A stretch of DNA of 64,000 bases from Ignavibacteria bacterium (GTDB lineage: Bacteria > Bacteroidota > Ignavibacteria > Tepidaquicellales > Tepidaquicellaceae): NCBI GenBank assembly GCA_015657505.1, contig JADLKE010000002.1, positions 190,067 through 254,066 on the forward strand. The letters are read 5' to 3'. Both the position numbers and the translations under genes were made by a program. Of the stretch, positions 19,136 through 42,282 are shown in pieces (the stretch's first letter is position 1; the number at the start of each line of letters is the position of its first letter). The notes under the pieces were generated by a model that was not told the origin of the DNA, did not search any database, and saw nothing but the letters and a program-made list of their open reading frames with translations.

Positions 19136-20467
19136 CTACTTCCCCTTTACTGTCTTTCTCCCTATGCTGTAATAAGTATAGCCGAGTTCCTTCATAACAT
19201 TGACCGCGTATATGTTACGACCGTCGAATATTAATTTATTCTTCAACAACGCGGACATTTTTTCAAAATCAGGATTGCGGAATTCATTCCATTCGGTAAA
19301 TATCAGCAGCGCATCGGCGTTTTTCAAAGCGTCATATTCGTCATTTGCGTATGTTATCGTGTTCTTCAGGTAGAATTTCGATGTCTCAATCGCGGCGGGA
19401 TCGTAAGCGGACACTTTCGCCCCGGCTTTAAGCAGTTCGTTTATTATGACGACGGAGGGCGCTTCGCGCATGTCGTCCGTGTTGGGTTTGAACGCCAGGC
19501 CCCATGCGGCAAAATTCTTTCCTTTAATATCCCCGTTGAAGTGCTTCACGACCTTATCGAAAAGAATTTTTTTCTGCTGCTTGTTTATTCTGTCGACGAC
19601 TGTGAGCAGATTCATTTCCGAGCCGCGGTCAACGGAAGTTTTTATGAGCGCGTTCACGTCTTTCGGAAAGCAGGAGCCGCCGTACCCGATGCCCGCAAAG
19701 AGAAATCTCTTTCCTATTCTTGTATCCGTTCCCATCCCGCGTCTCACGTTGTCAATATCAGCCCCCACCGCTTCACAGAAATTCGCAAGTTCGTTCATAT
19801 AAGTTATTCGCATCGCGAGATAGGAATTCGCGGCGTACTTCGTCACTTCCGAACTCGCAGTATTCATTTCCACGATTGGATTGCCCTGTCTAACGAAAGG
19901 CTCATACAGGAGCCTCATTTTCTCGAGCGCGGTTTTGCTCTCGGAACCTATGACAATTCTGTCGGGCTTCATGAAATCTTCGACCGCAAAACCTTCGCGG
20001 AGAAATTCCGGATTTGAGACTATGTCAAAATTATCGCCGCCTTCCTTTCGAATTTCGTTCTCGACAAGTTGAGCCGTGCCCACGGGAACAGTGCTCTTGT
20101 TCACTATTATTTTATATTCCTTATTTCCGCTTGCTTTTAATATTCCGCCTATTTCCTTCGCGACGCCGAGCACGTACTGAAGGTCGGCGGAGCCGTCTTC
20201 ACCCTGCGGTGTCGGCAGGCAAAGAAACACGACTTCCGAATTTAATACTGCTTGCTTCAAATCACCCGTAAAAATCAGTCTTTTCTTTTCTATGTTTCTG
20301 CTGAAAATAATCTCGAGTCCCGGTTCGTAAATCGTAACTTCGGCGTTCTGTAACTTTTTAAGTTTTTCAGGGCTGTTATCGACGCAGATGACGTTATTGC
20401 CCATCTCCGCGAAACAGGTTCCCGACACCAATCCTACATATCCTGTACCAATAACGGAAATATCCAT
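19136..20467 (-). CDS. ugd: UDP-glucose 6-dehydrogenase
   Basis: 443 aa with IGTGYVGLVSG, the GGSCFPKD catalytic Cys motif, and the LAFKPNTDD pattern. Confidence 0.93.
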   Translation of the reverse strand: MDISVIGTGYVGLVSGTCFAEMGNNVICVDNSPEKLKKLQNAEVTIYEPGLEIIFSRNIEKKRLIFTGDLKQAVLNSEVVFLCLPTPQGEDGSADLQYVLGVAKEIGGILKASGNKEYKIIVNKSTVPVGTAQLVENEIRKEGGDNFDIVSNPEFLREGFAVEDFMKPDRIVIGSESKTALEKMRLLYEPFVRQGNPIVEMNTASSEVTKYAANSYLAMRITYMNELANFCEAVGADIDNVRRGMGTDTRIGKRFLFAGIGYGGSCFPKDVNALIKTSVDRGSEMNLLTVVDRINKQQKKILFDKVVKHFNGDIKGKNFAAWGLAFKPNTDDMREAPSVVIINELLKAGAKVSAYDPAAIETSKFYLKNTITYANDEYDALKNADALLIFTEWNEFRNPDFEKMSALLKNKLIFDGRNIYAVNVMKELGYTYYSIGRKTVKGK

Positions 20468-29931: not shown

Positions 29932-29968
29932 ATAAAAAATCCGGTTATCGCTCTGCAACAACCGGATT
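29932..29968 (-). terminator. probable terminator of the 42282->30073 gene array
   Basis: AATCCGGTT-13 nt loop-AACCGGATT followed by T6 on the minus strand, about 105 nt after the flippase stop. Confidence 0.55.
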
Positions 29969-30072: not shown

Positions 30073-31539
30073 TTAGGTGCGATTTATAAATATTGATTTT
30101 ACAGTGGTTAATTTTATAGCGCCGGATATGTTTAAAGAAAAGATAAAAAATATTATGAGGATAAATGAAATAATTATTAAAATCGTGTTACCGAAACATA
30201 ATGAGGAAATGAAATAAAGCAAATAGCAAATCCCCGCAAACACAGCAATGACAAGGATTTTGGAGGTTTCATAATCAATTTTACAAATTTTCTGCGAGCG
30301 GAAGTATAGATAGACAAGCATTATTAAGTAAGTAATCAGTGTTGAGCCCGCCGCTCCTGTCATTCCGTATTTTGGTATCAGCAGAAAATTAAGAATGATG
30401 TTGGCGATGAATCCGAAAAGGGCCGTGAGAAAGAGTTCTCCCGTTCTGTTCGCGTAAAAAGGAGCGACACTCATCGCGGAATACAAGCCGGAGAAAAAGT
30501 AAGCGAGAAGAACTATCGGTATTATTACGAGTCCGCTCTGATATCTCGCATCGAGCAGCGAAAAGTTTCCGAAAGAAATTTTTACGACCGGTGCCGTAAA
30601 GAAAGAGAACACAAGGAACATCAGGAGACCCGCGAATACAAGATACGTAAAAATTTCCGATACAAGTTTTTTGTTCTCCGGATTTTTTTCAAGATTCAGG
30701 AAGTAAGGCGTCCACGAAAATCTGAATGCCGCCACGAGCAGAGACATTACCGAGGCGAGCCTGTAACTCGCGCTGTAAATTCCGACCACTTCTTCGCTAT
30801 AAAAATACTTCAGAAAAAATCTGTCTGATATATCAATTATCAGTATGAACAAGCCGATGTAAATGAATTTGTTCCCGTACAATACAAGGCGTTTCGCCGT
30901 ATCGAAAGAGAATCTGAATGCAATGTGTCTCGCGGTAACCGCAATCCCCGCCGCGAAAGTAACAACAACCGAAATTATGTAACTGTAGAAAATCGCTTCA
31001 ACGCCCGCGCCGAAACCCGCTATCAGAGCGAAATTCGCCGCGACGTTCACGAAAACCGAGAGCAAAGTCAGGTACAGGTACTTTTTCGCGTCAAGTTCGG
31101 CTCTCAGAAGCAGCAAAGGAAAACGGAAAAGCGTATCAGTAAATAGCAGCAGAGCCAGAATTTTTAAGAGTTTGATTCCCAGTACTGAATCCTCAAATTT
31201 TATCAGTGATGAAATCGACGGAGTAAGGAAATAGAACGCGGCAGAGAAGACAAGTGATGATGCCGACAACATTATCAATGTTGTCGAATAGACAGTTTTC
31301 TTCTCCGAATCATCCCTGCTGTCAATGAAAAACTTTATGAACGCCGTTTCCTGACCGTATATATAAATCAAAATAACGAAAAGCCATACTGACTGAACAA
31401 TATTGTAAACGCCGAGTTCGGCAGGAGCGAAACAGAACGTATAAAGCGGTAGCAGCAGGAATGATATCGCTTTGTTAGCGAACAGACCTATGCCGTATAT
31501 CGCGGTTTGAGAGAACAATTCTTTTACGTGCCTGCTCAA
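30073..31539 (-). CDS. Wzx/MOP-type oligosaccharide flippase
   Basis: 488 aa with ~12-14 TM and a polysaccharide-biosynthesis-protein N-terminus (FSQTAIYGIGLFANKAISFLLLPLYT). Confidence 0.8.
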   Translation of the reverse strand: MSRHVKELFSQTAIYGIGLFANKAISFLLLPLYTFCFAPAELGVYNIVQSVWLFVILIYIYGQETAFIKFFIDSRDDSEKKTVYSTTLIMLSASSLVFSAAFYFLTPSISSLIKFEDSVLGIKLLKILALLLFTDTLFRFPLLLLRAELDAKKYLYLTLLSVFVNVAANFALIAGFGAGVEAIFYSYIISVVVTFAAGIAVTARHIAFRFSFDTAKRLVLYGNKFIYIGLFILIIDISDRFFLKYFYSEEVVGIYSASYRLASVMSLLVAAFRFSWTPYFLNLEKNPENKKLVSEIFTYLVFAGLLMFLVFSFFTAPVVKISFGNFSLLDARYQSGLVIIPIVLLAYFFSGLYSAMSVAPFYANRTGELFLTALFGFIANIILNFLLIPKYGMTGAAGSTLITYLIMLVYLYFRSQKICKIDYETSKILVIAVFAGICYLLYFISSLCFGNTILIIISFILIIFFIFSLNISGAIKLTTVKSIFINRT

Positions 31540-32588
31540 ATTCCGTTCTCCGAATATAATTCTTCAAGCCTCTTGTTGACACTTTCAAACGAATGATATT
31601 TTTCCGCCCACGCTCTTCCTTTTTCGGAATAATCTCTGAGAATCGATTTATTCTCGAGAATACCCGCGATAGTGTTCTTCAATCCGTCTATATCCGAGCA
31701 AATAAATGGATTTTCAGGAATGAAATTCAGATACTCCTCGTAGAATTCCGTTATTGTCGGAAGACCCATAGACAGATTTTCAATAGAGTTTTTTCCGTAT
31801 CCCGAACCGCCCATCAGACCACCGACCTGGTCAATCGCGAGGCTGCAGCCGCGTTTAATTTCGAGCAGTTTCGAGCGGGAAACGTTTTCAGCGAGAATGA
31901 ACTCGAAATCGTATTTCCTTTTCAACTCTTCGATAACCGGTATAATCCTGTCCGTTCCTTTATACAGGCGGTTTGTCGGGGAATGTATTATTTTAACCTT
32001 GTCCTCAACATTAAAACGGTATTCGAATTTCTTCACGTCAAAAGGAAAGAAAAGATAATTGATATTCTTGTGTAATCTTATGTGGTCAAACTCAACGGTA
32101 AGATTCAGCCTGCTCATTTCGTCGAGTTCGCGGAATATGCCGCGCGTTCTCAAATCGCTTCCGAAATAACAGCAGACAATTTTCTTCCCGAGTTTATTTA
32201 TCTCTTTAGCGAATCTCAGGTCCCTGTAGAAGTCCATTCCCCCGTCGAAATGATAAACGTCAAAATCATAGAGTTTATTTTCTTCGATGAACTTTTCAAT
32301 TTTGCTTGTATTTTTCAGGTCGCGGAGTTTGAAATATATTTTCTCCGCGGTATTTTTTGGCTCGTAATACTTGAGGCTTGTAATCTTTGAATCCCGCCAT
32401 TGCTTGGCAATCCTGCCCGAGGGAAGTCTGAAGCCGAGAGTGAGGTCTTCGTCGAAGTTCAGCGTGTTTTGATAAATCGTTACGAGTCTTGCATAGTGGC
32501 CGTTTTCGGACTGCATCCTCGCGAAATCAAGCGGCATTCCCGCAAAGTTCTGAGGAGCTATATGTAATATGCGCTTACTCAACGCCAA
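31536..32588 (-). CDS. putative GT-B fold glycosyltransferase
   Basis: 350 aa. C-terminal half resembles GT1/GT4 donor-binding region (YGKNSIENLSMGLPTITEF). 4-nt overlap with the flippase. Weak assignment. Confidence 0.45.
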   Translation of the reverse strand: MALSKRILHIAPQNFAGMPLDFARMQSENGHYARLVTIYQNTLNFDEDLTLGFRLPSGRIAKQWRDSKITSLKYYEPKNTAEKIYFKLRDLKNTSKIEKFIEENKLYDFDVYHFDGGMDFYRDLRFAKEINKLGKKIVCCYFGSDLRTRGIFRELDEMSRLNLTVEFDHIRLHKNINYLFFPFDVKKFEYRFNVEDKVKIIHSPTNRLYKGTDRIIPVIEELKRKYDFEFILAENVSRSKLLEIKRGCSLAIDQVGGLMGGSGYGKNSIENLSMGLPTITEFYEEYLNFIPENPFICSDIDGLKNTIAGILENKSILRDYSEKGRAWAEKYHSFESVNKRLEELYSENGI

Positions 32589-33312
32589 GCAGTCTTGATA
32601 TATTTCGGTGAAATATCAATTCTTTTTCTTCGCTGCTAATGTTTAGACTTTCGATAACAGGTATGTACATTTTCGGAAGTCCGAGATTGTAATCGCTTCC
32701 GAATATTACCCTATCAGCGCCGACAGTCTTCACGACCTGATTCACGAAATGGAATTCCCTTACGGATTCCGTTCCGAGATAAACGTTCTTCAGTCCGCTC
32801 TCTTTTACCGCGGCCGCGCAGGACGTGCAAAGCGAAGGCTGGTCGCCTCCGAGATGCGCTATTATAACGTTAAGTTTCTTTCTTTTCTTCGCCGCCTCAA
32901 TCGGGTACTCAAAACCCGCTATTTCCTGCCATCTTCCGCAGTGAACGATGACGGGGAAATTATTCTCTTCGGCAATATCAAGATACTTCGCGTATGCCTT
33001 ATCCGTCACCCTCTTTTTCTGAAACGAGGGATGTATCTTGAATGCTTTGATATCTTTCAGGTTCTTTTCAATGAATGAATCCAGTTTTTCGTCATCGGGA
33101 TTAATCCAGCAAGCGAAATGAAACGTGAACTCTTTCTGAGATTTGATTTCATTCAGAAGTTCTTCGTTCATAAAGGTGTCGCACGGCAGAGCAACGGCTG
33201 AATCAATTCCAGAGTCTTTCATAACTTTAACAGCATCGCTGACCGTCGTGGCGTAGTCAAGAAACACCCCGCTCCATTTCCCGATATGTATGTGTCCGTC
33301 AATGATCTTCAA
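32575..33312 (-). CDS. amidohydrolase-family metal-dependent hydrolase (TIM barrel)
   Basis: 245 aa with N-terminal IDGHIHIG metal motif, VIVHCG and a ...FGSDY tail. Confidence 0.65.
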   Translation of the reverse strand: MKIIDGHIHIGKWSGVFLDYATTVSDAVKVMKDSGIDSAVALPCDTFMNEELLNEIKSQKEFTFHFACWINPDDEKLDSFIEKNLKDIKAFKIHPSFQKKRVTDKAYAKYLDIAEENNFPVIVHCGRWQEIAGFEYPIEAAKKRKKLNVIIAHLGGDQPSLCTSCAAAVKESGLKNVYLGTESVREFHFVNQVVKTVGADRVIFGSDYNLGLPKMYIPVIESLNISSEEKELIFHRNISRLLGVE

Positions 33313-34222
33313 TTGAAACTGTCCCCTTTTTTAAACGTTTCTTTATAATTTATTTCCTCCAGATTTTCATCCCTTACATCGTAGTTCATTATGTAACCGT
33401 CCTTGCATCTTACGATTATGTAGTCTTCGTTTACGTCCGCGATCACTCCCGGCTTCTCACCGGAATCGCCTGCCGGATAAGGTTTCGAACGGAGTATCAG
33501 AAATTTTTTCCCGCCGAACCCGGTAAATGCCGTAGGATACGGGTGCGCGAGTGCTCTGATTTTATTATAAACCGTTTTGACGCTTTCGTTCCAGTCAATT
33601 TTCCTTTCGGCATCCGTAATCATCCTGTTCGCTTTTTCCTTGCGAGGAGGTTTCTGCTTTCTGAAAATGTCCTTCTTTCCGGAAATTAATTTTTCGAAAA
33701 CTTCAATAAGAAGGTTCGCGCAGTTGAATGAACACTTGTAATAAAGCGTGTTCACGTCGTCCTCGTCATCAATTATAACGCTCTTCTCGAGAAGTATATC
33801 ACCCGAATCCACTCCGCTGTCAATCTTGTGAATAGTCAGGTACAGAGTATCGTTTCCGTCCATAATCGCGCGCGATATGGGAGCCCTTCCCCTGTATTCA
33901 GGAAGTTTGCCGCAATGTATGTTCAGTATTCCGTATACAGGAACATTAAAGACGTCTTCTTTTATTATCTCCATGAAACCCGCGCAAATACCGGCGTCGA
34001 ACCCTGTGAATCTTTCCTTGATTTCGGAAATGCTGTCCGTCTTTATGAGTTCTATTCCGTGCGCGCCGCAGAGGCTATCAATCTTTTCGTAGAATTTATG
34101 CTTTTGATTTTCATAATCGTACGTCCTGTGAGTTACAACAAAAGCGGGGGATATTTCATCATTATAAGGTCGTTAAGGCACCTCAGGCTCATTTCTCCGT
34201 ATGCAAGAAAAAAATATTTCAT
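33309..34222 (-). CDS. ArnA-N-like sugar-nucleotide formyltransferase, interrupted by a -1 homopolymer frameshift
   Basis: The track ORF 33309..33974 begins just before the NIHCGKLPEYRGRAP active-site motif (formyltransferase HxSLLPxxRG type). The missing N-terminal domain is encoded upstream from ATG 34222 (MKYFFLAYGEMSLRCLNDLIMMKYPP). The frame is lost in the G5 run 34146-34150, and one extra base restores a 304-aa protein. Confidence 0.7.
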
Positions 34223-35184
34223 TTGTTAAAATATTTTTTGTACCATTTGTACGTTCTTAAAATTCCTTCCGTCAAATCAATCTTAGGCTTGAAGCCGAGA
34301 ACTTTCTGCGCTTTCTCTATGCTCGGTATCCTTAGTTCGACGTCAACGTAATTCTTCGGTATGTATTTAATCTTCGATTTCGTTCCCGTCAGAAGCACAA
34401 TTTTTTCGGCAAGCGAACTGATTGTTATCGTGCCTTTTGGATTTCCAATATTGTATATTTCACCAACCGCCTTTTTGTTAGTCAGGCAAAGAATAGTTCC
34501 CTCAATCATGTCATCGATATAGCACCACGCTCTTATCTGGTCGCCGTCGCCGTGTATATGTATGTCTTTATTAAGAACCGCGTTCTTTATAAAAATCTGA
34601 ATGGCGCCTTCGCCAATCTGCCCCGGTCCGTAAATGTTGTAAGGTCTGATTGACACGGCGGGATATCCTCTCGTCTTATAATAACTGTAAAGCAAATGCT
34701 CGCCGGAAACCTTGCTTATAGAATAAGTCCATCTCCCTTCACCGACCGGAGCGAGGTTCGTGTTCGATTTCTCGCTTGATTTATAGGCGTACGCGCCGAG
34801 GACTTCGCTGGTAGAAAAATTGACGACCCGTTCGAGTTTGCCGCTGTATTTTTCGAGAGCCCTGACGAAATTAAACGTGCCGAGTATGTTTACTTCCATG
34901 GTTTTTACCGGATTGTTTATCACTGTATCGACGCCCGCTATCGCGGCGAGATGCAGGGCAATCTGCGGCTTGAAATCTTCAGTTGCTTTCTTCAACGCTT
35001 CGTAATCGGTTATGTCGCCGTTGACGATTTTGACGTTCTTTAGATTAATCTTCTTATACTTGAGTGAATCCCTCGCGAAAATGTCGTAAATCAGTATTTC
35101 ATTTTCCTTGCTGAACAACTCTGCGAGCCTGCTGCCTATGAATCCGCCTCCGCCCGTTAGCAGTATTCTTTTATTCTTAATCAT
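34219..35184 (-). CDS. NAD-dependent SDR, ArnA-C-like UDP-glucuronate (oxidative) decarboxylase/epimerase family
   Basis: 321 aa with TGGGGFIGSRL, STSEVLG and RWTYSISK (compare the RWIYSVSK catalytic region of E. coli ArnA as I recall it). Confidence 0.65.
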   Translation of the reverse strand: MIKNKRILLTGGGGFIGSRLAELFSKENEILIYDIFARDSLKYKKINLKNVKIVNGDITDYEALKKATEDFKPQIALHLAAIAGVDTVINNPVKTMEVNILGTFNFVRALEKYSGKLERVVNFSTSEVLGAYAYKSSEKSNTNLAPVGEGRWTYSISKVSGEHLLYSYYKTRGYPAVSIRPYNIYGPGQIGEGAIQIFIKNAVLNKDIHIHGDGDQIRAWCYIDDMIEGTILCLTNKKAVGEIYNIGNPKGTITISSLAEKIVLLTGTKSKIKYIPKNYVDVELRIPSIEKAQKVLGFKPKIDLTEGILRTYKWYKKYFNK

Positions 35185-35191
35185 GATTTTT

Positions 35192-36157
35192 CTATAAATT
35201 TAATGTATAACTTTTTCTTAAAAATCCGTCCGCCATGAACTTTTTCTTGAAGTCGAAAAGACCCTGCAGCAGTTCATTTCCGACGTTCGAAGTACCGATA
35301 TCGTAAAGCCTGAAATTATTCAGTTTTGACCATTCAATTGTCTTGTAAAGCAGGTAGTCCGAGACCCTGTCCTTCTTGTGCTCCTCGTCCGCGGCGAGAT
35401 AGAAATTCAGCACGACATCGTTCTTGACGAGAAACAAAGTGCAAATACCCGCTATCTGTCCGTTTACGCTTGCCGTGAATAGTTTTACCCTTTCGCTCAA
35501 TACGGTTTTCAGATAAACAAGTTCCTCGAGCGTGTGTGTAGGCTTGACATGCTTCAATTCCCTGTTCGCGTAAAGTATCCCGTAAAAATCGCGAAGGCTG
35601 TCTTCGGTTATGTTCTCTTCTATCAGGTCAATCCCGATAATCTTCGCTGATTTCTGTATCGACCTTTTCTTCGGATTCTTTAGTTTCTCAAATTCGAAAC
35701 TTTTCAGGTCCACGATGTTGGTTATCGAATATCTCGTAACGTTGAATCCAGAAAGAATGAGCGCGTACTCGTATTCCTCATTCGCGTTCCTGTGGTATAT
35801 GTACGGGGAGTTCCTGATAAGGCACTTCTTGAATTTCTGAGACTGAAGGTACTCCCTGAACTTGCCGATTGCTTCAATGAAATCGGTTATCTTAAGTTTG
35901 TCTCTCCACAGGAAGCCTCCGAAACTCACACCGTCGCAGGAAACGTATGACTTGCCTTCATTATCCGTGATTTCGTTGCCCGGAATTATCGCGATGATTT
36001 TGTTTTTATCCCTGAAAAGCAGATGATGCCATTTGATGTTCTTCCTGAAAATATCGTTGTAGCAAAGGAACCTCTTGTCGTAGAACATGTTATAATCCGC
36101 AGCGAGAAACTCATCCCACTCATGGCTTTTTGATATGTCTATTCTTTCTATTTCCAA
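35192..36157 (-). CDS. FemAB-like / GNAT-fold (aminoacyl or acyl) transferase
   Basis: 321 aa. C-terminal pattern LLYKTIEWSKLNNFRLYDIGTSN...GLFDFKKKF is typical of the FemAB-like acetyltransferase family. Confidence 0.5.
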   Translation of the reverse strand: MEIERIDISKSHEWDEFLAADYNMFYDKRFLCYNDIFRKNIKWHHLLFRDKNKIIAIIPGNEITDNEGKSYVSCDGVSFGGFLWRDKLKITDFIEAIGKFREYLQSQKFKKCLIRNSPYIYHRNANEEYEYALILSGFNVTRYSITNIVDLKSFEFEKLKNPKKRSIQKSAKIIGIDLIEENITEDSLRDFYGILYANRELKHVKPTHTLEELVYLKTVLSERVKLFTASVNGQIAGICTLFLVKNDVVLNFYLAADEEHKKDRVSDYLLYKTIEWSKLNNFRLYDIGTSNVGNELLQGLFDFKKKFMADGFLRKSYTLNL

Positions 36158-37824
36158 TTGTTTCTGTATAATTCGTATCCCGGAGACTTCTTCACCAGCG
36201 TGTAACCGCCGGGAATAAATGTTTTTGAATCGGGATAATCGCTTCTGTTAATTTTATCCTTCTCGACGATTATATTGTAAACACCGCTCTTTCCCGCTAT
36301 CGCGTTTCTAACCGCATCGGTCCCGCTCTTAGTGTCAAGGAATTCAAAATCGTAGTTTCCCCTGTTCCATCCGAGGTCGAGCCCTTCGAAATAGAAACTG
36401 AACTGCGGATTATGCCTGTAATTAGATGCAACGTATATCAGGTTCCTGCTTCCGCTCTTTTCAATTTCCTCCTTTATATCTGTAATCTTGAAAGAGTTCT
36501 CCCAGTAAGGAATCCTGACGGCGTAAAGCGTGTTCACGAAAATCAAAAATACTAAAATAAAAGCATAGTATATACTCGTAATGCCTGACCTCTTTTTGAT
36601 TATCAGTACTATTGACGCGGCGGAAATCAGCGCCCACAATACGGCAATGACCAGCAGCAGTTTCAATCCGCCGTTTTGAATTTTAAATCCTTCTTCTATC
36701 CTGAAGTAATTCAGCGCCGACCAGAAAATGTTCAACGCCGTGAGCGATAAAAGTGCGGTCTTCTCTTTGATGCCGGCTTTATCGATGTTTCTCACATAAT
36801 CGGCTGCCAGAAACGCACCGGGAACGAGCATAAGAAGTATATATACTTCAAGTTTAGTCCTGAAAAAAGTAATTATGAGCAGTCCCGTCACGAACCAGAC
36901 GAGCACGAATATCTCTTTCACGCCCGCATTCTTAAAATTAATAATCTTCTTTGCAGCGCCGAACAGCACTACCACTCCGTAAGGCAGAATTGTGAGCAGA
37001 TAATTTATATGGTATAAATAACCCGACCCTTTCGTGTTATGCTCTACGCCGAACAGGGCTCTTTCGTATATGTGATAGAAGAAAAAGTAATTCGCGAATT
37101 CCTTTCCGTAAACCGCGAACATGTACGCGTGCCACGGAGCCGCGATTAATATTCCAATCAGGGTAAGCATAAACAAATCCGAAAACGAGTATTTGAATTT
37201 TCCGCGCGCGGAAAGCATGACCAAAAAAATTACCATCGGAATGAAAAAGCCAACGAGAATTTTCACCATCAGGCAAAGCCCGAAAACGACCCCCGCCAGA
37301 TAGTTATATTTTCTTTCGCCCGTGTCGGAATACCTTAATATGAAATAGAAAGAGGATATTATCAGAAGCGAGTAAGGGATATCGAACTGGAACCTGTTGC
37401 AGAAAATACTAAAGATAATATTGCTCGATAATATAACGGCTGCAATTATTCCCGCGCGGGCATCGTAAATATTTCTGCCGAATATCATCATTACCCACAG
37501 CAGTACCGCGCTCAGTATAAAAATAAAAATTTTGAAACTGACGTTATTCATCCCGAACAGCGAAGTGAAGGCGTATCCCGCCCAGATGAGAAGCGGCGGG
37601 TGCGAGCCTGAATAAAATCCTCCGATTGAATGCGCGCTCTGGTCGATTATATCACCCGAAACCTTTATCGATAGTACACGCGTCGCGTACATACCCTCGT
37701 CCCAGGGCTGTATATCGGTTACGATCATCGTATGTATTTTCGCGGCAAATAAAAAAACGACGAGAAAGAAGAAGACATGCTTCAGATTTTTCCCGTCGTC
37801 AAAATATTTTAATATTCCCGTCAT
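36148..37824 (-). CDS. ArnT/PMT-family (GT-C) membrane glycosyltransferase
   Basis: 558 aa with ~12 TM, the acidic first-loop motif WDEGMYA and a periplasmic C-terminal domain. Confidence 0.75.
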   Translation of the reverse strand: MTGILKYFDDGKNLKHVFFFLVVFLFAAKIHTMIVTDIQPWDEGMYATRVLSIKVSGDIIDQSAHSIGGFYSGSHPPLLIWAGYAFTSLFGMNNVSFKIFIFILSAVLLWVMMIFGRNIYDARAGIIAAVILSSNIIFSIFCNRFQFDIPYSLLIISSFYFILRYSDTGERKYNYLAGVVFGLCLMVKILVGFFIPMVIFLVMLSARGKFKYSFSDLFMLTLIGILIAAPWHAYMFAVYGKEFANYFFFYHIYERALFGVEHNTKGSGYLYHINYLLTILPYGVVVLFGAAKKIINFKNAGVKEIFVLVWFVTGLLIITFFRTKLEVYILLMLVPGAFLAADYVRNIDKAGIKEKTALLSLTALNIFWSALNYFRIEEGFKIQNGGLKLLLVIAVLWALISAASIVLIIKKRSGITSIYYAFILVFLIFVNTLYAVRIPYWENSFKITDIKEEIEKSGSRNLIYVASNYRHNPQFSFYFEGLDLGWNRGNYDFEFLDTKSGTDAVRNAIAGKSGVYNIIVEKDKINRSDYPDSKTFIPGGYTLVKKSPGYELYRNNWK

Positions 37825-37862: not shown

Positions 37863-38759
37863 TTAGAAATTATAGCCGAGCGAAATCGAATTCCCCGAGC
37901 CGAATCCAATCGAATACGGCTGGAAAGCGTAGTCAACGTATAATGACTTGTACTTAAGACCAAGCCCCGCGGAGAAACTTTTATTTTCGTAACCAGTCTG
38001 ATAACCGCCTCTTAAAAATATGAAATCCTTGTAACCTCCCTCGATCCCTATGTGCGTGTGTAAAGCGCCCCCGTCAAGAACTTTAAAACCGTCTAGCGCG
38101 CCTGTAATAGAAAAGTTGTCCTTCCTGTACATGTAACTCGCGCCAAGCCTAAGCGATGTCGGCAGTTTCGTCTCGGAATTTAAAAGCGCGTTCATAGAGC
38201 CAACATTGGCCAGGACAACGGCGAATGAAACATTGTTGATTTTATAATTCGCGCCGAAATCAAGACCGTAACCTGACGCCTCATCGATGTATATTTTCTC
38301 GTAAAGCATTTTTACCGTAATCCCCGCGGTGAAATTGTTCTGGATATCATAGCATAGGCTTATGCCTCCCGAAAAGTTATCCGAGTTGAATGTTTCTATC
38401 GGAGCGCCGGGATTATTCCTGACTTCGATGTCGCTGACGGTTGTCTTCAGGAGACCGATTCCAATTCCGAATTTATTCAGCCTGAATTTAGCGCCAACAA
38501 AATTCGTCGTCATATCCATCATTGTCTTATTGAACATTGCGGTAACGTTTCCGTTTTCGGTGGCGTTTACTCTGGCAGGATTGTATATGTAAGCTGTCCC
38601 GTCGTCCGCGAGCGACACGAATGCTTCGCCCATCGCGATGGAGCGGGCTCCTATACCGAGTTTCAGGAAAGACAATCCCGTATTTCCCGCGCCGTCATTT
38701 TGTCCGAAAGTTATTCCCGCAAAGAATAATATCAGAGTCGTTATGAAAATTTTTCGCAT
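37863..38759 (-). CDS. PorV/PorQ-family-like outer-membrane beta-barrel
   Basis: 298 aa with a signal peptide and the N-terminal motif GLSFLKLGIGARSIAMGEAFVSLADDGTAYIYNPA. Alternating beta-strand pattern and a terminal Phe. Confidence 0.55.
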   Translation of the reverse strand: MRKIFITTLILFFAGITFGQNDGAGNTGLSFLKLGIGARSIAMGEAFVSLADDGTAYIYNPARVNATENGNVTAMFNKTMMDMTTNFVGAKFRLNKFGIGIGLLKTTVSDIEVRNNPGAPIETFNSDNFSGGISLCYDIQNNFTAGITVKMLYEKIYIDEASGYGLDFGANYKINNVSFAVVLANVGSMNALLNSETKLPTSLRLGASYMYRKDNFSITGALDGFKVLDGGALHTHIGIEGGYKDFIFLRGGYQTGYENKSFSAGLGLKYKSLYVDYAFQPYSIGFGSGNSISLGYNF

Positions 38760-38792
38760 ATAAATAAACTAATACTTCAAGTTATGAATAAA

Positions 38793-39839
38793 TTATTTGA
38801 ATTTAAAAGCAATTCCGATATTCTGAGCAGGCTTGTGCGTGTACGGCTCAATCTGGAAACTGTAATCCAGACCGATATTAATGTCCTTCGTGAACGATTT
38901 TGTCAGGCCTATACCCGCTCCGGGCTGAATGTTTCCCCAGAAGTCATCAGATTTAAAGTCCATTCTGTCAATGCCCGCGCGTATTTTCACGTAATCGTTC
39001 AGGTTTATTTCGCCTCCTACCTTGAGCGCGAAATTGTAATTTCTCTTGCTGTATGACTTAACGCCGAGAGTATCTGTCGTCTCGAACCTCGGATTCACGT
39101 AAGTATCAAGACCGACAGAAACCAGACCGAGTTTCTTCGGCAGGTTGTAAGTTCCTCCGAACGCTACGAGAACGGGAAATTTTTCTTCAGATGTTGTTCC
39201 GCTCGTTCCGTAAACATTCTGTCCCGTAGTCTCCCATTTATACTTCACTCCAAGGTCCCTGACTGCCAGACCGAACGACAAGTCCTTGCTCGCTAAGTAA
39301 GTAAAGCCTGCGTCAAAACCCACGCTCGTTGTAGTTACTTCTTCATAAAGTTTAGAGTAATACAGTTTAAATCCCACGCCTATGGATAAATCGGGCGCTA
39401 CGAGGATGCTCATACCCATAAGGAATTGATTTTCATAAGTTCCGAGCATTCCTATCGAACGGGCGTCATTGTCTCTTCCGTCAATATCCGAAACCCCCGC
39501 GTTAATCCAGGAAAGACTGATGCCAGCGGTCTGCTTGCCCCCTGACAGTGAAAACTTTTTCGCGAATGAAACGAAGTTTAGTTTTCTGTCAAGACTCAGG
39601 AATGTATAACCGAGATTCACGACTCCGTTTTCCTGAAAACAACTGAGAGACGGATTGTAGTATCCTGACACGTCGCCGTACCTGTCCGAAACGAGCGTGT
39701 TTCCCATTGAAAGACCTCTCGCGCCGAAGCCCATCCTGGCAAAACTTCCGGGGTAACTGCCCAATTGAGCGTTCGCGCCTGAGAATGCCGCCAGAATCAG
39801 TAATATCGCTAAGTATTTTTTCATATTCTGAAAACTCAT
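38793..39839 (-). CDS. second PorV/PorQ-like outer-membrane beta-barrel (more divergent)
   Basis: 348 aa with a signal peptide and FARMGFGARGLSMGNTLVSDRYGDVSGYYNPS, a beta-barrel-like sequence. Confidence 0.4.
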   Translation of the reverse strand: MSFQNMKKYLAILLILAAFSGANAQLGSYPGSFARMGFGARGLSMGNTLVSDRYGDVSGYYNPSLSCFQENGVVNLGYTFLSLDRKLNFVSFAKKFSLSGGKQTAGISLSWINAGVSDIDGRDNDARSIGMLGTYENQFLMGMSILVAPDLSIGVGFKLYYSKLYEEVTTTSVGFDAGFTYLASKDLSFGLAVRDLGVKYKWETTGQNVYGTSGTTSEEKFPVLVAFGGTYNLPKKLGLVSVGLDTYVNPRFETTDTLGVKSYSKRNYNFALKVGGEINLNDYVKIRAGIDRMDFKSDDFWGNIQPGAGIGLTKSFTKDINIGLDYSFQIEPYTHKPAQNIGIAFKFK

Positions 39840-39846
39840 TAAATTT

Positions 39847-41460
39847 TTATTTCATTAAAATAACTTTTCCCCAGAAAGGAGTCTCGTCGTCAACCTCTAT
39901 TCTGTAGAAATAGACAGCGTTTGCCGGTATGTAACCGTCGTCGTTCCTTCCGTCCCATATCGCGAAGTTTACGTCGTTGTTTGTCCTCGTCGCGTTCTGT
40001 ATAACCGTTCTGACGGGATTCATTCCGAAGTCGAAAATCTTTATTGTTACTTTCGAAACAGGTTTGCTTGTCTTGAAGAACAGCCGCGTTACTTCATTGT
40101 TCGGTGAAAAAGGATTCGGAGCCGCGTACGTTTCCGAAGTAGATGTCAAATTGCCGCAAGCCCTGAAAATCTTCCAGGGAGAAGACCACGGAGATACTGT
40201 CAATTTTGTGCGCAGCATTCCGTCAGCGCTTCCGAAATACAATGTATCGTTAATGTAATTCCCCGAATAAAAACTGCTTGACCTGCATAAATCCTTCGAT
40301 ACGGGATCGGCAATCAGCGAAGGTTTCGACCAGTCGAATTTTCCGAAATTGGCGCGCCACATTCCCCCGTCAGTGTAACCGAATACGATTGAATCCTTCG
40401 AACTTATTCCGTTCGGTCTGTAGCCGCCGAGCGTGTATTCCCAGGAATACCCGTTATTCGTGGAATAACTCAACGCGTCCACTTCGTTATTATCATTGGC
40501 TTTTCTCGATGCCGCCCACCAGACTTCCCTGCTTCCGTACTTCTGTACGTGAAATTTCACAACGAAATTCCCCGAAACCCTGTTTGTTCCGCTTCCAGAG
40601 TTCTGAAAATTATACTTCCTCCAACTTACACCCCAGTCTCTCGAAATGTTAATTCCGTTCGCGGAGCCGGCGAGTAGAGTTGAATCGTTCACCGCTACAA
40701 CCGAAAAGAGCCTGTGATTCAGGTTTATATTCGGATTCAAAACGAAGTTATAAACTCCTCCCGTGTATATGCTGTCGAGGTCGTCCGGAGGCAGCAGCAC
40801 TCTTTGCCAGGATACCCCGTAATCAGTGGATTTTCTGAGACCTCCGGCGAAACTCGTAATCCAGATAGTGTAATTTAAAGTATCGCCCTTTGTACGGGAA
40901 ATTGCAATATCGTAAGACAGATTCTGCTGAGGTACGACTACGGGCAGTGCGTGAATGTTGTTCAATCCGTATGTAACAACCGTATCGGTCAATCCGTCCA
41001 TCGGCTGCGGATATGAATTCCAGGAACGGCCGTAATCAGTCGAGACCTTGATTCCCGTTCCGGTAGCGACATTTTCACCGTCAATTAACTCACTTATCGC
41101 GGTAGCCGCGACGAACACTCTGTCTTTTACGTTCAAACCCGCGACGTCGTCCGTCCCGAAAGGTTCGGACTCGATGTAATAATCAAAACTGTTGAACCTG
41201 TCCGTCGTGCGCATCAGTCCGCTTCCCGTTCCGAACCAAACAGTATCACCCGAAAAAAAGATGTCCGTAACGAAGTTGCTTATCGGGCATTTAGAATTCT
41301 TCGGATTCACGACGACCGCCGTAAGTTTCGCGTTCTTGCCGGAAGTCTTAACGAAAACATTTTTGAACTTCCCCAGCGAGAAATTTTCGGGTATTGTCTG
41401 CGAAAACAGGTTGACTCCCGCGGTTAAAATCACGAATAAAAATATTTTTCTTAATATCAT
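39847..41460 (-). CDS. Asp-box (BNR-like) beta-propeller protein with CTD/FlgD-Ig-like C-terminal tail
   Basis: 537 aa with a signal peptide and the motifs STDYGRSW, STDYGVSW, SRDWGVSW, STNNGYSW. Tail APNPFSPNNE...VYFYRIEV...KVILMK. Confidence 0.6.
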   Translation of the reverse strand: MILRKIFLFVILTAGVNLFSQTIPENFSLGKFKNVFVKTSGKNAKLTAVVVNPKNSKCPISNFVTDIFFSGDTVWFGTGSGLMRTTDRFNSFDYYIESEPFGTDDVAGLNVKDRVFVAATAISELIDGENVATGTGIKVSTDYGRSWNSYPQPMDGLTDTVVTYGLNNIHALPVVVPQQNLSYDIAISRTKGDTLNYTIWITSFAGGLRKSTDYGVSWQRVLLPPDDLDSIYTGGVYNFVLNPNINLNHRLFSVVAVNDSTLLAGSANGINISRDWGVSWRKYNFQNSGSGTNRVSGNFVVKFHVQKYGSREVWWAASRKANDNNEVDALSYSTNNGYSWEYTLGGYRPNGISSKDSIVFGYTDGGMWRANFGKFDWSKPSLIADPVSKDLCRSSSFYSGNYINDTLYFGSADGMLRTKLTVSPWSSPWKIFRACGNLTSTSETYAAPNPFSPNNEVTRLFFKTSKPVSKVTIKIFDFGMNPVRTVIQNATRTNNDVNFAIWDGRNDDGYIPANAVYFYRIEVDDETPFWGKVILMK

Positions 41461-41478
41461 TTTAAATTCATTTTTCTT

Positions 41479-42282
41479 TTAATTTGGCCTGACAAATTTT
41501 ATGCTGTCTTTGTAAGTCGTGCTGAACACGTCCGAACGGTCCAGCGCGGTGAACCAGTACTTATAATAACCGTACGAAGAATCGGGTTCGGCATAAGATA
41601 CGGTGTTAGTATATGAATAAACATTATTTCCGTTGTACGTCATAGCGTACCTTCCTATGAAATTCCCGCTCGGTCTGTAAGCGTCCATGTAAACGAACGC
41701 GATATCGCAGGGTCCGTCCGCGTCTGTCGCTGTAAGAGAAAGAGTGAGATTTACGGAACCGGATAACGGTCTGACGACGCTGTCGGGTATGTCCGGGTTT
41801 GAAACAACGGGAGCAACATTCGCTGTGTTTTGCACATAAAATGAACTACTCAGCATGTTGCTGCTCAATCCCTGCTCGTTAGTTGCAATTACCTGAACAG
41901 TATAATCTCCGACTAGCAGACAGGAAACGCTGCCAAGGGTAAGAGTAGCGGCGTATTTCTTGCCTCCCGCGGTGTCGTAAGCATATACGAGATTTTGCGC
42001 GCCGTAACTGTTCAATTTCGGGTCCGTTACAGTGCAGGTAACGCCTGTCAAAGGCGTGCCGTTGTTGACGTCCGCGACTGCGGAAATGTAAAATTTAATT
42101 ACAGGTGAACCTGATGTAGTTTTCACGGTATCAGGCACCAGTACAAGATTCGAAAGTATCGGGGAATCGTATGTAGGATCAATAACGCCGTCATCCTTTT
42201 TCTCGCATGAAAATAACACCACGCAAGCCGATAGTAAAAATAAGGCGAAACTTGCTCTTTTTAACATTTTAATTTTATTCAA
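41479..42282 (-). CDS. lipoprotein with Ig-like domains, unknown function
   Basis: 267 aa with lipobox LLSACVVLFSC followed by EKKDD. No family recognised. Confidence 0.5.
   Translation of the reverse strand: MNKIKMLKRASFALFLLSACVVLFSCEKKDDGVIDPTYDSPILSNLVLVPDTVKTTSGSPVIKFYISAVADVNNGTPLTGVTCTVTDPKLNSYGAQNLVYAYDTAGGKKYAATLTLGSVSCLLVGDYTVQVIATNEQGLSSNMLSSSFYVQNTANVAPVVSNPDIPDSVVRPLSGSVNLTLSLTATDADGPCDIAFVYMDAYRPSGNFIGRYAMTYNGNNVYSYTNTVSYAEPDSSYGYYKYWFTALDRSDVFSTTYKDSIKFVRPN

What the first reader, a model, noticed from the sequence alone, without database searches (positions are those of the whole stretch)
30073..37824. Seven-gene translationally coupled glycan operon: split ArnA, ArnT-like GT-C and a FemAB-like transferase, but no ArnB/ArnC
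**Seen.**
- Start/stop overlaps of 4, 14, 4, 4 and 10 nt link the flippase, GT-B, amidohydrolase, formyltransferase, SDR, FemAB-like and GT-C genes.
- The formyltransferase (NIHCGKLPEYRGRAP) and the SDR (RWTYSISK) are separate genes overlapping in ATGA.

**Established.**
- In the E. coli Arn pathway both activities are domains of a single ArnA protein.
- ArnA acts with the ArnB aminotransferase, the ArnC GT2, the ArnD deformylase and ArnT to put 4-amino-arabinose on lipid A.

**Inference.**
- No aminotransferase or GT2 is present here.
- An amidohydrolase could substitute for the deformylase.
- A FemAB-like enzyme suggests aminoacylation of an amino sugar.
- UDP-GlcA supply (ugd at 19136..20467) is encoded 10 kb away.
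- The end product is therefore probably not classical Ara4N-lipid A.
Basis: partly seen in the sequence, partly recalled or inferred. Interest (0 to 1): 0.6.

Follow-up and report, generated by a model that had tools for sequence, protein, structure and literature searches.

The report
Arn-like aminoacyl-sugar operon tied to T9SS
This Ignavibacteria operon joins Arn-type enzymes for a 4-amino pentose to an enzyme that hangs an amino acid on a sugar, and its neighbours here and in other phyla suggest the product is the sugar handle that fastens type IX-secreted proteins to the cell surface.

Summary
The seven genes and their 4/14/4/4/10-nt overlaps are real. One flaw was missed: the formyltransferase gene is split by a one-base loss in a C-run, most likely an assembly error.

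**Enzymes**
- The SDR keeps every ArnA decarboxylase catalytic residue.
- The formyltransferase keeps the ArnA N102/H104/D140 triad.
- The FemAB-like protein folds like aminoacyl-tRNA-dependent transferases, not like an acetyl-CoA GNAT.
- The unannotated gene is a GT4-like GT-B.
- The GT-C is ArnT-like.

**Context**
- The operon is the 3' part of an 11-gene block: lipoprotein, CTD propeller and two PorV/PorQ paralogs, then FemAB...GT-B-Wzx.
- The block is kept across Ignavibacteria while the sugar-supply genes are swapped.
- In Gemmatimonadota, Glassbacteria and an unclassified MAG, each genome's only PorZ homolog lies directly upstream of the FemAB operon. In the first two, and in an Eisenbacteria MAG, that operon also has SDR and DegT.
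- ArnB-like and ArnC-like genes exist elsewhere in this genome. The ArnC-like gene sits beside canonical porZ.

**Best reading (about 0.55):** an Arn/Vim hybrid that makes an N-aminoacyl-Ara4N-type linking sugar for T9SS cargo anchoring.

**Status:** a new variant of a known kind. The scan met the same FemAB/PorZ theme before on other DNA (Ignavibacteria, Eisenbacteria, Fermentibacterota, Saprospiraceae).

The parts
36148..37824 (-). GT-C glycosyltransferase of the PMT_2/ArnT type, 558 aa
   Evidence: Pfam PMT_2 at 6e-18 and NCBIfam ArnT at 1e-15, sub-threshold. It is 25% identical to E. coli ArnT over residues 1-330 and keeps the first-loop DE motif.
35192..36157 (-). FemAB-family (VimA-like) aminoacyl transferase, probably aminoacyl-tRNA-dependent, 321 aa
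   Evidence: Matches Acetyltransf_6 and TIGR03019. The family-f2 ortholog hits Pfam FemAB at 2e-11 and TIGR03019 at 9e-22. The model has pLDDT 94.5. Its top folds are Sba18/Sbb17, FemX, FemA and MprF, at TM 0.65-0.74.
34219..35184 (-). ArnA-C-type SDR, probably a UDP-glucuronate C4-oxidase/decarboxylase, 321 aa
   Evidence: ArnA residues T432, S433, E434, Y463, K467, R619 and N492 are all conserved. PDB matches are 8vr2 at 1e-92, UXS at 2e-35 and ArnA-C at 2e-28.
33309..34222 (-). ArnA-N-type formyltransferase. It is 304 aa when intact, and is split here by a 1-nt loss in the C-run at 34146-34150.
   Evidence: The frames are shown. N102, H104 and D140 are conserved in the intact orthologs. NCBIfam hits are fmt, PRK06988 and ArnA.
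32575..33312 (-). Amidohydrolase-superfamily metal hydrolase, 245 aa. Proposed N-deformylase/deacylase, an analogue of ArnD and VimE.
   Evidence: Pfam Amidohydro_2 at 8e-19. The HxH motif, K92, H124, H153 and D207 are invariant in 8 orthologs. The nearest structure is 3cjp at 7e-11.
31536..32588 (-). GT-B (GT4-like) retaining-type glycosyltransferase, 350 aa, in the VimF-like position
   Evidence: There is no Pfam hit. The profile hits GT4 C-terminal domains weakly. The model has pLDDT 92.7, and its top folds are BshA, MshA and PglA.
30073..31539 (-). Wzx-type MOP-family flippase, 488 aa
   Evidence: Pfam Polysacc_synt_3 at 3e-18 and Polysacc_synt at 3e-15.
29938..29968 (-). Intrinsic terminator closing the transcription unit
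   Evidence: A 14-bp stem with 6 GC pairs followed by a T-run, about 105 nt after the Wzx stop.
37863..39839 (-). Two PorV/PorQ-family outer-membrane barrels directly upstream. They are paralogs, not the canonical PorV or PorQ.
   Evidence: NCBIfam PorV_fam at 3e-38 and 2e-21. Canonical PorV and PorQ lie elsewhere in the genome. The synteny is conserved across the class.
39847..42282 (-). A 537-aa protein with a T9SS CTD-like tail and BNR/propeller signals, plus a 267-aa protein of unknown family. These are the first two genes of the conserved block.
   Evidence: The C-terminus matches the CTD of PorU at 2e-6 and Por_Secre_tail at 7e-3. The synteny is shown.
19136..20467 (-). UDP-glucose 6-dehydrogenase, the UDP-GlcA supply, about 10 kb away
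   Evidence: All three UDPG_MGDP_dh domains are present. The best NCBIfam match is TuaD, 517 bits.

Best explanation
The seven genes are the biosynthetic half of an 11-gene unit. [quoted passage not shown]

Proposed steps:
1. Ugd makes UDP-GlcA (enzyme family shown).
2. The ArnA-C-type SDR oxidises and decarboxylates it to UDP-4-keto-pentose (catalytic residues shown, activity inferred).
3. A DegT aminotransferase encoded elsewhere makes UDP-Ara4N (inferred; in other phyla the gene sits inside the operon).
4. The ArnA-N-type formyltransferase N-formylates it (triad shown, substrate inferred).
5. The sugar is put on a lipid carrier or glycan. Candidates are the ArnC-like GT2 beside porZ and/or the GT4-like GT-B (inferred).
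6. The amidohydrolase removes the formyl group, as ArnD or VimE would (inferred).
7. The FemAB-family enzyme transfers an amino acid, probably from aminoacyl-tRNA, onto the freed amine, as VimA does (fold shown, chemistry inferred).
8. Wzx flips the product, and the ArnT-like GT-C places it on its periplasmic acceptor, most likely LPS (inferred).
9. The free alpha-amine of the added amino acid is then the nucleophile for the PorU sortase. The adjacent PorV/PorQ paralogs and CTD propeller handle the glycolipid, as PorQ and PorZ do in P. gingivalis (inferred from synteny).
For: **Enzymes**
- SDR residues match ArnA.
- The formyltransferase triad is conserved.
- The FemAB model is closest to aminoacyl-tRNA-dependent transferases, including ones that acylate an amino sugar.
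- The GT-B fold is confirmed.
- The amidohydrolase metal ligands are invariant.
- The GT-C is ArnT-like.

**Pathway logic**
- SDR-DegT-Fmt-Amido-FemAB-Wzx occurs as one run in a Gemmatimonadota MAG and a Glassbacteria MAG.
- SDR-DegT-FemAB-Amido-GT-B-Wzx occurs in an Eisenbacteria MAG.

**T9SS link**
- The FemAB gene is present in 41 of 41 genomes of the order.
- The block lipoprotein / CTD propeller / PorVQ2 / PorVQ1 / FemAB...GT-B-Wzx is kept in both families of the order and in four further families of the class.
- PorZ-like proteins (NF052228, 1e-40, 2e-36, 4e-25) lie directly upstream of the operon in three phyla. Another lies 8 nt upstream of FemAB in an unclassified MAG.
- In three of these genomes it is the only PorZ match.
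- A PorU-like protein lies directly upstream of FemAB in one further lineage, and a PorV-like protein in another.
- All five genomes tested carry a PorU-family match, four of them above the curated cut-off.

**Module swapping in a fixed scaffold**
- Family f2 has EpsG plus an AsnB-type amidotransferase instead. The latter resembles WbpS.
- One f1 genome lacks SDR-Fmt in the operon. It has DegT, a dehydratase-like SDR and Fmt inserted between porZ and the ArnC-like GT2.

**Literature**
- Known linking sugars are all N-aminoacyl amino sugars made by a deacylase, a FemAB-type enzyme and a GT4: Ser in P. gingivalis, Gly in T. forsythia, Ala-dHex in P. intermedia.
- Further pathways are expected (PMC7468200, PMC11969387, PMC13086638).
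Against: - There are no biochemical data for any protein here.
- No aminotransferase or GT2 lies in or next to the operon in any Ignavibacteria f1 locus.
- The best ArnB-like gene lies in a separate EPS locus, and its orthologs are not co-distributed with SDR/Fmt.
- This genome has canonical PorU, PorV, PorQ and PorZ elsewhere. The adjacent barrels and propeller are therefore paralogs of unknown role.
- In many phyla FemAB-GT-B-Wzx, or FemAB alone (WOR-3), has no T9SS neighbour.
- CTD-protein neighbours are no more frequent than chance.
- The amidohydrolase also occurs without a formyltransferase (Eisenbacteria, G020), so it is not only a deformylase.
- The formyltransferase scores as well against Met-tRNA formyltransferase as against ArnA.
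- VimA itself could not be compared directly.
Confidence: 0.55

Rival explanations
1. An Arn/Lgm-type envelope modification unrelated to secretion. The operon decorates lipid A or LPS core with Ara4N, further aminoacylated, to tune surface charge. The PorV/PorQ-like neighbours are FadL-type barrels with some other lipid or LPS role.
For: - ArnA-type SDR and formyltransferase and an ArnT-like GT-C are present.
- An ArnC-like GT2 exists in the genome beside an LpxA-like gene.
- One DegT gene lies in a GT9 LPS-core-like cluster.
- Many phyla have the FemAB triad without T9SS neighbours.
Against: - This reading does not explain why the only PorZ homolog of three unrelated genomes abuts the FemAB operon.
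- It does not explain the class-wide fusion with PorV/PorQ paralogs and a CTD protein.
- The ArnC-like GT2 is itself next to canonical porZ in several genera.
Confidence: 0.2
2. An ordinary Wzx-dependent O-antigen or exopolysaccharide unit that happens to contain an N-formyl or N-aminoacyl amino sugar. This would resemble PEP-CTERM-type EPS loci with FemAB and AsnB genes. The conserved neighbourhood would be inherited gene order without functional coupling.
For: - A Wzx flippase and a GT4 are present.
- The f2 version carries an EpsG-type polymerase and an AsnB-type amidotransferase.
- TIGR03019 is defined by EPS/exosortase loci.
- A second FemAB+AsnB EPS locus exists on contig 3.
Against: - The locus has no initiating phosphoglycosyltransferase, chain-length regulator or multiple glycosyltransferases.
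- The gene set is conserved in 41 of 41 genomes of the order, unlike hypervariable O-antigen loci.
- The scaffold is kept while flanking genes vary.
- PorZ/PorU/PorV adjacency recurs independently in other phyla.
Confidence: 0.15
3. The same system with a different order of steps. The Fmt-like enzyme formylates the alpha-amine of the amino acid, either on the tRNA or after transfer to the sugar, as a transient cap. The amidohydrolase removes it later. The SDR product need not be formylated at all.
For: - The formyltransferase scores slightly better against Met-tRNA formyltransferases than against ArnA.
- FemAB enzymes use aminoacyl-tRNA.
- The amidohydrolase tracks FemAB more closely than it tracks Fmt.
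Against: - The gene order SDR-DegT-Fmt in the Gemmatimonadota and Glassbacteria MAGs mirrors arnB/arnA logic.
- In G020 a DegT-SDR-Fmt trio directly precedes the ArnC-like GT2, whose best family match is the Und-P Ara4FN transferase.
- A separate canonical fmt exists.
Confidence: 0.1

Closest known systems
Wbp/Vim linking-sugar pathway of Porphyromonas gingivalis and Tannerella forsythia (vimA-vimE-vimF with WbpA/B/E/D/S); PMC7468200, PMC13086638
   Same: - Both follow the logic deacylate an N-acyl amino sugar, add an amino acid with a FemAB/TIGR03019-type enzyme, and transfer with a GT4.
- The gene order FemAB-deacylase-GT-B, seen in G020 and the Eisenbacteria MAG, mirrors vimA-vimE-vimF.
- Both are linked to T9SS attachment proteins.
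- The f2 relatives even carry a WbpS-like AsnB amidotransferase.
   Different: - The sugar supply is Arn-type (UDP-GlcA decarboxylase plus formyltransferase), not Wbp-type (2,3-diamino uronic acid).
- The deacylase is an amidohydrolase-superfamily enzyme, not CE4.
- An ArnT-like GT-C and a Wzx flippase are built in.
- The genes are physically fused to PorV/PorQ/PorZ-like genes, which is not the case in P. gingivalis.
Arn (Pmr) pathway for Ara4N-lipid A (ArnB-C-A-D-T-E-F). The split form ArnA1/ArnA2 of Burkholderia and Ralstonia is cited from my own knowledge.
   Same: - The SDR has all ArnA-C catalytic residues.
- The formyltransferase has the ArnA-N triad.
- A GT-C of the ArnT clade is present.
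- A formylate-then-deformylate logic is plausible.
- An ArnC-like GT2 and ArnB-like aminotransferases exist in the genome.
   Different: - ArnB and ArnC are not in the operon.
- ArnD (CE4) is replaced by an amidohydrolase, and ArnE/F by Wzx.
- A FemAB enzyme and a GT4 are added.
- The neighbours are T9SS-type proteins rather than PmrAB-regulated genes.
- All family scores are far below NCBI equivalog cut-offs.
Aminoacyl-tRNA-dependent amino-sugar acylation in streptothricin-type antibiotics (Sba18/Sbb17, PDB 9wqw-9wqy) and FemX of Weissella viridescens
   Same: These are the best structural matches of the FemAB-like protein, and its only PDB sequence-profile hit. Sba18 and Sbb17 acylate the amine of an amino sugar.
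   Different: Sequence identity is 12-14%. The context there is natural-product or peptidoglycan synthesis, not a surface-glycan operon.
Bacillithiol and mycothiol logic (BshA/MshA GT4, then a deacetylase, then amino-acid addition)
   Same: The GT-B model is closest to BshA and MshA. The three-step logic glycosylate, deacylate, aminoacylate is the same.
   Different: The flippase, GT-C and outer-membrane partners indicate an exported, lipid-linked product rather than a cytosolic thiol. The amino-acid-adding enzyme is of a different family.

Membership tests
ArnA C-terminal domain (UDP-GlcA C4-oxidase/decarboxylase) | Catalytic T432/Y463/K467 plus decarboxylation residues S433, E434 and R619 (residue roles from my knowledge of the ArnA structures) | tested here: met
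   All are conserved, as is N492, in the alignment with E. coli ArnA. The TSE motif differs from the TDE of 4,6-dehydratases.
ArnA C-terminal domain (UDP-GlcA C4-oxidase/decarboxylase) | Score above the curated equivalog cut-off, or orthology | tested here: not met
   ArnA model 117 bits against a cut-off of 777. PRK11908 130 bits against 294. Identity to ArnA is 30%. The closest structure, 8vr2 (1e-92), has no functional name.
ArnA N-terminal domain (UDP-Ara4N formyltransferase) | N102/H104/D140 triad and a Formyl_trans_N + Formyl_trans_C architecture | tested here: met
   tested on the intact orthologs. The window copy is frameshifted.
ArnA N-terminal domain (UDP-Ara4N formyltransferase) | Specific for a sugar nucleotide rather than Met-tRNA | tested here: inconclusive
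   fmt 153 bits, PRK06988 135 bits, ArnA 134 bits, all below their cut-offs. PDB Fmt scores 6e-26 and ArnA 9e-23.
Arn pathway as a system | ArnB, ArnC, ArnD (CE4) and ArnE/F encoded with ArnA and ArnT | tested here: not met
   None of them is in the operon or the window. ArnB-like and ArnC-like genes lie elsewhere. There is no CE4; an amidohydrolase and Wzx take those places.
ArnT / GT83 GT-C | PMT_2 core with the first-loop acidic motif, and a score above the ArnT cut-off | tested here: inconclusive
   PMT_2 at 6e-18, with the DE motif aligned to the ArnT sequence PDETRYA. The ArnT model gives only 57 bits against a cut-off of 567.
FemAB family (aminoacyl-tRNA-dependent transferases) | Tandem-GNAT FemX-like fold, closer to aminoacyl-tRNA-dependent enzymes than to acetyl-CoA GNATs | tested here: met
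   The model has pLDDT 94.5. The top 21 PDB matches are Sba18/Sbb17, FemX, FemA and MprF/aaPGS, at TM 0.56-0.74. Acetyl-CoA tandem GNATs score 0.4-0.57. Pfam FemAB is found in orthologs.
FemAB family (aminoacyl-tRNA-dependent transferases) | Use of aminoacyl-tRNA as donor, and which amino acid | not testable with these tools
   This needs an enzyme assay.
Wbp/Vim linking-sugar pathway | VimA-type enzyme (TIGR03019-like FemAB) | tested here: inconclusive
   The same NCBIfam model that the paper reports for VimA matches here, at 31 bits for f1 and 77.5 bits for f2, against a cut-off of 260. No VimA sequence was available for direct comparison.
Wbp/Vim linking-sugar pathway | CE4 deacetylase VimE and the Wbp enzymes WbpA/B/E/D | tested here: not met
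   There is an amidohydrolase instead of CE4, and no Wbp-type genes in the operon.
Wbp/Vim linking-sugar pathway | Functional tie to the T9SS attachment complex | tested here: met
   The tie is shown by synteny only. PorV/PorQ paralogs and a CTD propeller are adjacent across the class. PorZ-like, PorU-like or PorV-like genes lie directly upstream of the operon in six lineages outside it.

The most novel reading that the evidence does not exclude
T9SS linking sugars are modular across the FCB superphylum. A conserved FemAB-GT4-Wzx core is plugged into interchangeable amino-sugar supply modules.

This Ignavibacteria family uses an aminoacyl-4-amino-pentose (Ara4N-type). The sugar would be delivered through an Und-P / ArnT-like route and handled by a second, paralogous PorQ/PorV plus single-propeller attachment module.

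That would be the first pentose linking sugar and the first Arn/T9SS hybrid.
Probability: 0.35. Interest if true: 0.75.

Novelty: new variant of a known kind. Interest (0 to 1): 0.62.

Why it matters
How T9SS cargo is anchored is known chemically in only three oral Bacteroidia. The latest paper states that other, unknown pathways for linking sugars must exist (PMC11969387).

This locus gives a concrete, testable candidate outside Bacteroidia:
- It predicts a specific mass on cargo C-termini: an amino acid plus a 131-Da aminopentose.
- It shows Arn-type enzymes recruited for a purpose other than polymyxin-type lipid A modification.
- It shows that the aminoacyl transferase, not the sugar, is the constant element.

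The comparative pattern of PorZ, PorU or PorV genes abutting FemAB operons in several phyla offers a genomic marker for anchor-glycan loci.

Tried and rejected
- **C25 peptidase at 26478-29681 as the PorU sortase: rejected.** The true PorU (936 bits) is elsewhere, and this protein matches only through its CTD.
- **The two adjacent barrels as canonical PorV/PorQ: rejected.** They rank 6th and 7th among the family matches in this genome's six-frame search.
- **The contig-3 DegT (38% to ArnB) as the dedicated aminotransferase: not supported.** It lies in a separate EPS locus, and its orthologs occur in f2 genomes that lack SDR/Fmt.
- **Enrichment of CTD-bearing neighbours around FemAB in other phyla: none.** About 11 of 48 loci have one, near the rough chance expectation for genomes with dozens of CTD proteins.
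- **A low-molecular-weight-thiol (Bsh/Msh-like) reading prompted by the GT-B fold: rejected** because of the Wzx flippase, the GT-C and the outer-membrane partners.
- **Identity of PDB 8vr2: not found** in the paper library.
- **Direct test against VimA: not possible.** The big protein search returned only 'GNAT family N-acetyltransferase' or unnamed relatives.
- **Sigma-70 promoter scan: uninformative.** It found 26 sites against 27.5 expected.

Full report
**1. Observation**

The minus strand between 37824 and 30073 carries seven ORFs of 558, 321, 321, (221), 245, 350 and 488 aa.
A 7-nt spacer separates the SDR and FemAB-like genes.
- Both quoted motifs are present.
- The formyltransferase is not a single ORF. 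The ATG at 34222, which overlaps the SDR stop as ATGA, reads 29 codons and then stops. The catalytic part (33309-33974) is in another frame.
- Aligned with a 97%-identical relative (G003) and a 77-84%-identical one (G008), the window has CCCCC where G003 has CCCCCC. On the plus strand this run is at 34146-34150.
- Every other relative examined has the two parts in one frame.
- A second single-base homopolymer loss (A6 against A7) lies at 26110-26115. The genome is a 3-contig assembly. I therefore read both as assembly errors rather than pseudogenes.
- A strong terminator follows Wzx at 29938-29968.

**2. What the proteins are**

*SDR (34219-35184).* It aligns with E. coli ArnA residues 314-651. 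It keeps T432, S433, E434, Y463, K467, R619 and N492. The residue roles are from my knowledge of the ArnA structures.
- It has the decarboxylase-type TSE motif, not the TDE motif of 4,6-dehydratases.
- Its closest solved relative is 8vr2 (E 1e-92), which has no functional name. Human UXS and ArnA-C follow at 1e-35 and 1e-28.

*Formyltransferase.* The intact 304-aa form in G003 has Formyl_trans_N and Formyl_trans_C domains and the ArnA N102/H104/D140 triad. It scores about equally against Met-tRNA formyltransferase and ArnA-N models, all below their cut-offs.

*FemAB-like protein.* It matches Acetyltransf_6 and TIGR03019 weakly. Its f2 ortholog matches Pfam FemAB (2e-11) and TIGR03019 (9e-22).
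- A profile of the family finds only the aminoacyl-tRNA-dependent peptide synthases 9wqw and 9wqy in the PDB.
- An AlphaFold model from 73 sequences (pLDDT 94.5) is closest to Sba18/Sbb17, which acylate the amino sugar streptothrisamine. Next come FemX, FemA and the aminoacyl-PG synthase domain of MprF, at TM 0.56-0.74.
- Acetyl-CoA-dependent tandem GNATs come later, at TM 0.4-0.57.
- The 'ordinary GNAT' refutation is not met.

*The 350-aa protein without a Pfam hit.* It is a GT-B. Its model (pLDDT 92.7) is closest to the GT4 enzymes BshA, MshA and PglA.

*Amidohydrolase.* The HxH motif, K92, H124, H153 and D207 are invariant in eight orthologs from four phyla. Its nearest structure is an uncharacterised amidohydrolase, 3cjp.

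*GT-C.* It is PMT_2/ArnT-like, 25% identical to E. coli ArnT, and keeps the first-loop DE motif.

*Flippase.* It is Wzx-type.

*Ugd.* The gene at 19136-20467 is a UDP-glucose 6-dehydrogenase.

**3. ArnB and ArnC**

No DegT aminotransferase or ArnC-like GT2 lies in the window.

The genome has six full-length DegT genes.
- The most ArnB-like (38% identity; C3:88553-89710) sits in a separate EPS locus with its own FemAB-like and AsnB-like genes.
- Its orthologs also occur in genomes that lack the SDR and formyltransferase, so it is not a dedicated partner.
- Another DegT lies in a cluster of three GT9 genes.

An ArnC-like GT2 lies divergently next to the canonical porZ gene, at C1:1110241-1111335.
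- It is 33% identical to ArnC. Its best NCBIfam match is the Und-P Ara4FN transferase, at 194 bits.
- This adjacency is kept in at least seven further genomes of the family, but not in family f2.

**4. The operon is part of a larger, conserved unit**

Upstream, with gaps of only 38, 33, 7 and 18 nt, lie four more genes:
- two PorV/PorQ-family barrels;
- a 537-aa protein with a T9SS CTD-like tail and BNR/propeller signals;
- a 267-aa protein of unknown family.

The organism is an Ignavibacteria MAG. The FemAB gene is present in 41 of 41 genomes of the order.

In 16 loci from both families of the order the order is u267 - u537 - PorVQ2 - PorVQ1 - [GT-C] - FemAB - [variable] - GT-B - Wzx, while the outer flanks differ. 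The same block occurs in four further families of the class.

The variable slot differs between lineages:
- Family f1 has SDR-Fmt-amidohydrolase plus the GT-C.
- Family f2 has an EpsG-type membrane protein and an AsnB-type amidotransferase. The latter recalls WbpS of P. gingivalis.
- One f1 genome (G020) has only the amidohydrolase in the slot.

In G020, a methyltransferase, an acetyltransferase, a DegT, a 4,6-dehydratase-like SDR and an ArnA-N-like formyltransferase are inserted elsewhere. They sit between canonical porZ and the ArnC-like GT2. This complementary placement ties three things together: an N-formyl amino-sugar module, the ArnC-like GT2, and porZ.

The FemAB tree puts the f1 enzymes, with all other amidohydrolase-linked FemABs, outside the 77-sequence main clade (SH-aLRT 87).
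- The main clade holds f2, other Ignavibacteria and most other phyla.
- A single clade of all PorVQ-linked FemABs is rejected (AU p about 1e-49). Two caveats apply: the group was named after seeing the tree, and long branches are involved.
- Between f1 and f2, GT-B, Wzx, the barrels and the propeller are 40-50% identical, but FemAB only about 30%.
- I read this as exchange of the FemAB type together with the sugar module, inside a fixed scaffold.

**5. Other phyla**

The FemAB-GT-B-Wzx trio, or parts of it, occurs in MAGs labelled as follows:
- Latescibacterota
- Neomarinimicrobiota
- Calditrichia
- KSB1
- Zhuqueibacterota
- Gemmatimonadota
- Eisenbacteria
- Glassbacteria

Arrangements of note:
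- A Gemmatimonadota MAG (L106) and a Glassbacteria MAG (L124) carry SDR-DegT-Fmt-amidohydrolase-FemAB-Wzx.
- An Eisenbacteria MAG (L092) carries SDR-DegT-FemAB-amidohydrolase-GT-B-Wzx.
- The aminotransferase missing from the Ignavibacteria operon is therefore an integral member elsewhere. This supports the route UDP-GlcA, then 4-keto-pentose, then 4-amino-pentose.

T9SS neighbours in these lineages:
- Directly upstream of the SDR in all three loci is a protein of about 750 aa with Reg_prop repeats. It matches NCBIfam T9SS_PorZ at 1e-40, 2e-36 and 4e-25.
- A further MAG (L084) has a PorZ-like gene 8 nt upstream of FemAB.
- In L106, L124 and L084 this is the only PorZ match in the whole genome.
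- L123 has a 1558-aa PorU-like protein directly upstream of FemAB, and L082 a PorV-like barrel.
- All five genomes tested carry a PorU-family match, four of them above the curated cut-off.

That makes six immediate adjacencies among about 48 non-Ignavibacteria loci. A rough expectation is well under one, assuming about ten such genes in about 3000, so the excess is large. This is an estimate, not a test. By contrast, mere presence of some CTD protein nearby is not above chance.

**6. Comparison with what is known**

- VimE (CE4) removes an acetyl group.
- VimA adds the amino acid. It is a putative N-acetyltransferase that matches TIGR03019.
- VimF (GT4) probably transfers the sugar.
- PorZ delivers the glycolipid to PorU (PMC7468200, PMC13086638; the PorZ role follows the NCBIfam name and my own knowledge).

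P. intermedia uses N-alanyl-deoxyhexose made by an unknown pathway. The authors expect several further pathways (PMC11969387).

The present operon has the same deacylase / FemAB / GT4 logic, and in G020 and L092 the same gene order. It differs in three ways:
- The sugar comes from Arn-type enzymes.
- The deacylase is of a different superfamily.
- An ArnT-like GT-C and a Wzx flippase are included.

A split ArnA is itself known from Burkholderia and Ralstonia (my own knowledge; NCBIfam PRK06988 and PRK11908 are the stand-alone forms). The split is therefore not the novelty.

**7. Verdict**

- The most likely purpose is synthesis of an N-aminoacyl-Ara4N-type linking sugar for T9SS cargo attachment (confidence about 0.55). 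About 0.8 can be given to the weaker statement that the operon makes an N-aminoacylated amino sugar on an exported glycoconjugate.
- Open points are the aminotransferase used in this family, the roles of GT-B against GT-C and the ArnC-like GT2, the acceptor, the amino acid, and what the paralogous barrels and propeller do beside the canonical PorU/V/Q/Z set.

The scan had already met the FemAB/PorZ theme on this stretch and on other DNA:
- Ignavibacteria: e1-3092996
- Eisenbacteria: e1-924729
- Fermentibacterota: e1-924375 and e1-924376
- Saprospiraceae: e1-3850295

What this report adds:
- the residue-level and fold-level tests of the enzymes;
- the module-swap picture;
- the ArnC-like/porZ adjacency and its G020 variant;
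- the sole-PorZ adjacency in three more lineages.

Noticed in passing
In two loci they are duplicated in tandem, downstream of SDR genes. These are candidates for the still unknown pathway that makes N-alanyl-deoxyhexose linking sugars, as in Prevotella intermedia (PMC11969387).
   Followed up: no
G000 C1:1107634-1112105 (outside the window); L198, L199, L200: Canonical porZ lies divergently next to an ArnC-like polyprenyl-phosphate glycosyltransferase and an LpxA-like hexapeptide protein. The adjacency is kept in several genera of the family. In G020 a methyltransferase, acetyltransferase, DegT, dehydratase-like SDR and formyltransferase set is inserted between them.
   Followed up: partly
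G000 C3:70000-98000 (outside the window): This is a large polysaccharide locus. It holds a second, distant FemAB-like gene, two AsnB-type amidotransferases, a nucleotide-sugar dehydrogenase, two DegT genes and a Wzx. It resembles PEP-CTERM-type EPS loci.
   Followed up: partly
window 26110-26115: A second single-base homopolymer loss (A6 here, A7 in the 97%-identical relative) lies upstream of the small ORF at 25506-25994. Together with the C-run at 34146-34150 it suggests systematic homopolymer under-calling in this assembly.
   Followed up: yes
window 26478-29681: A 1067-aa C25 peptidase with propeptide and T9SS CTD lies just downstream of the operon. It is cargo-like, not the PorU sortase. 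It keeps this position only in close relatives.
   Followed up: partly
G000 C1:1854863-1859270 (outside the window): A DegT aminotransferase (best NCBIfam match LegC-type) follows three GT9 heptosyltransferase-like genes. A paralog of similar length appears in most f1 genomes and is another candidate for the missing aminotransferase.
   Followed up: no
L087, L104, L125, L128, L129 (Neomarinimicrobiota and related MAGs): Here the order is FemAB, a PMT_2 GT-C, Wzx, a small GT2, then GT-B. An ArnT-like/GT2 pair therefore recurs with the FemAB core even without the SDR and formyltransferase.
   Followed up: partly
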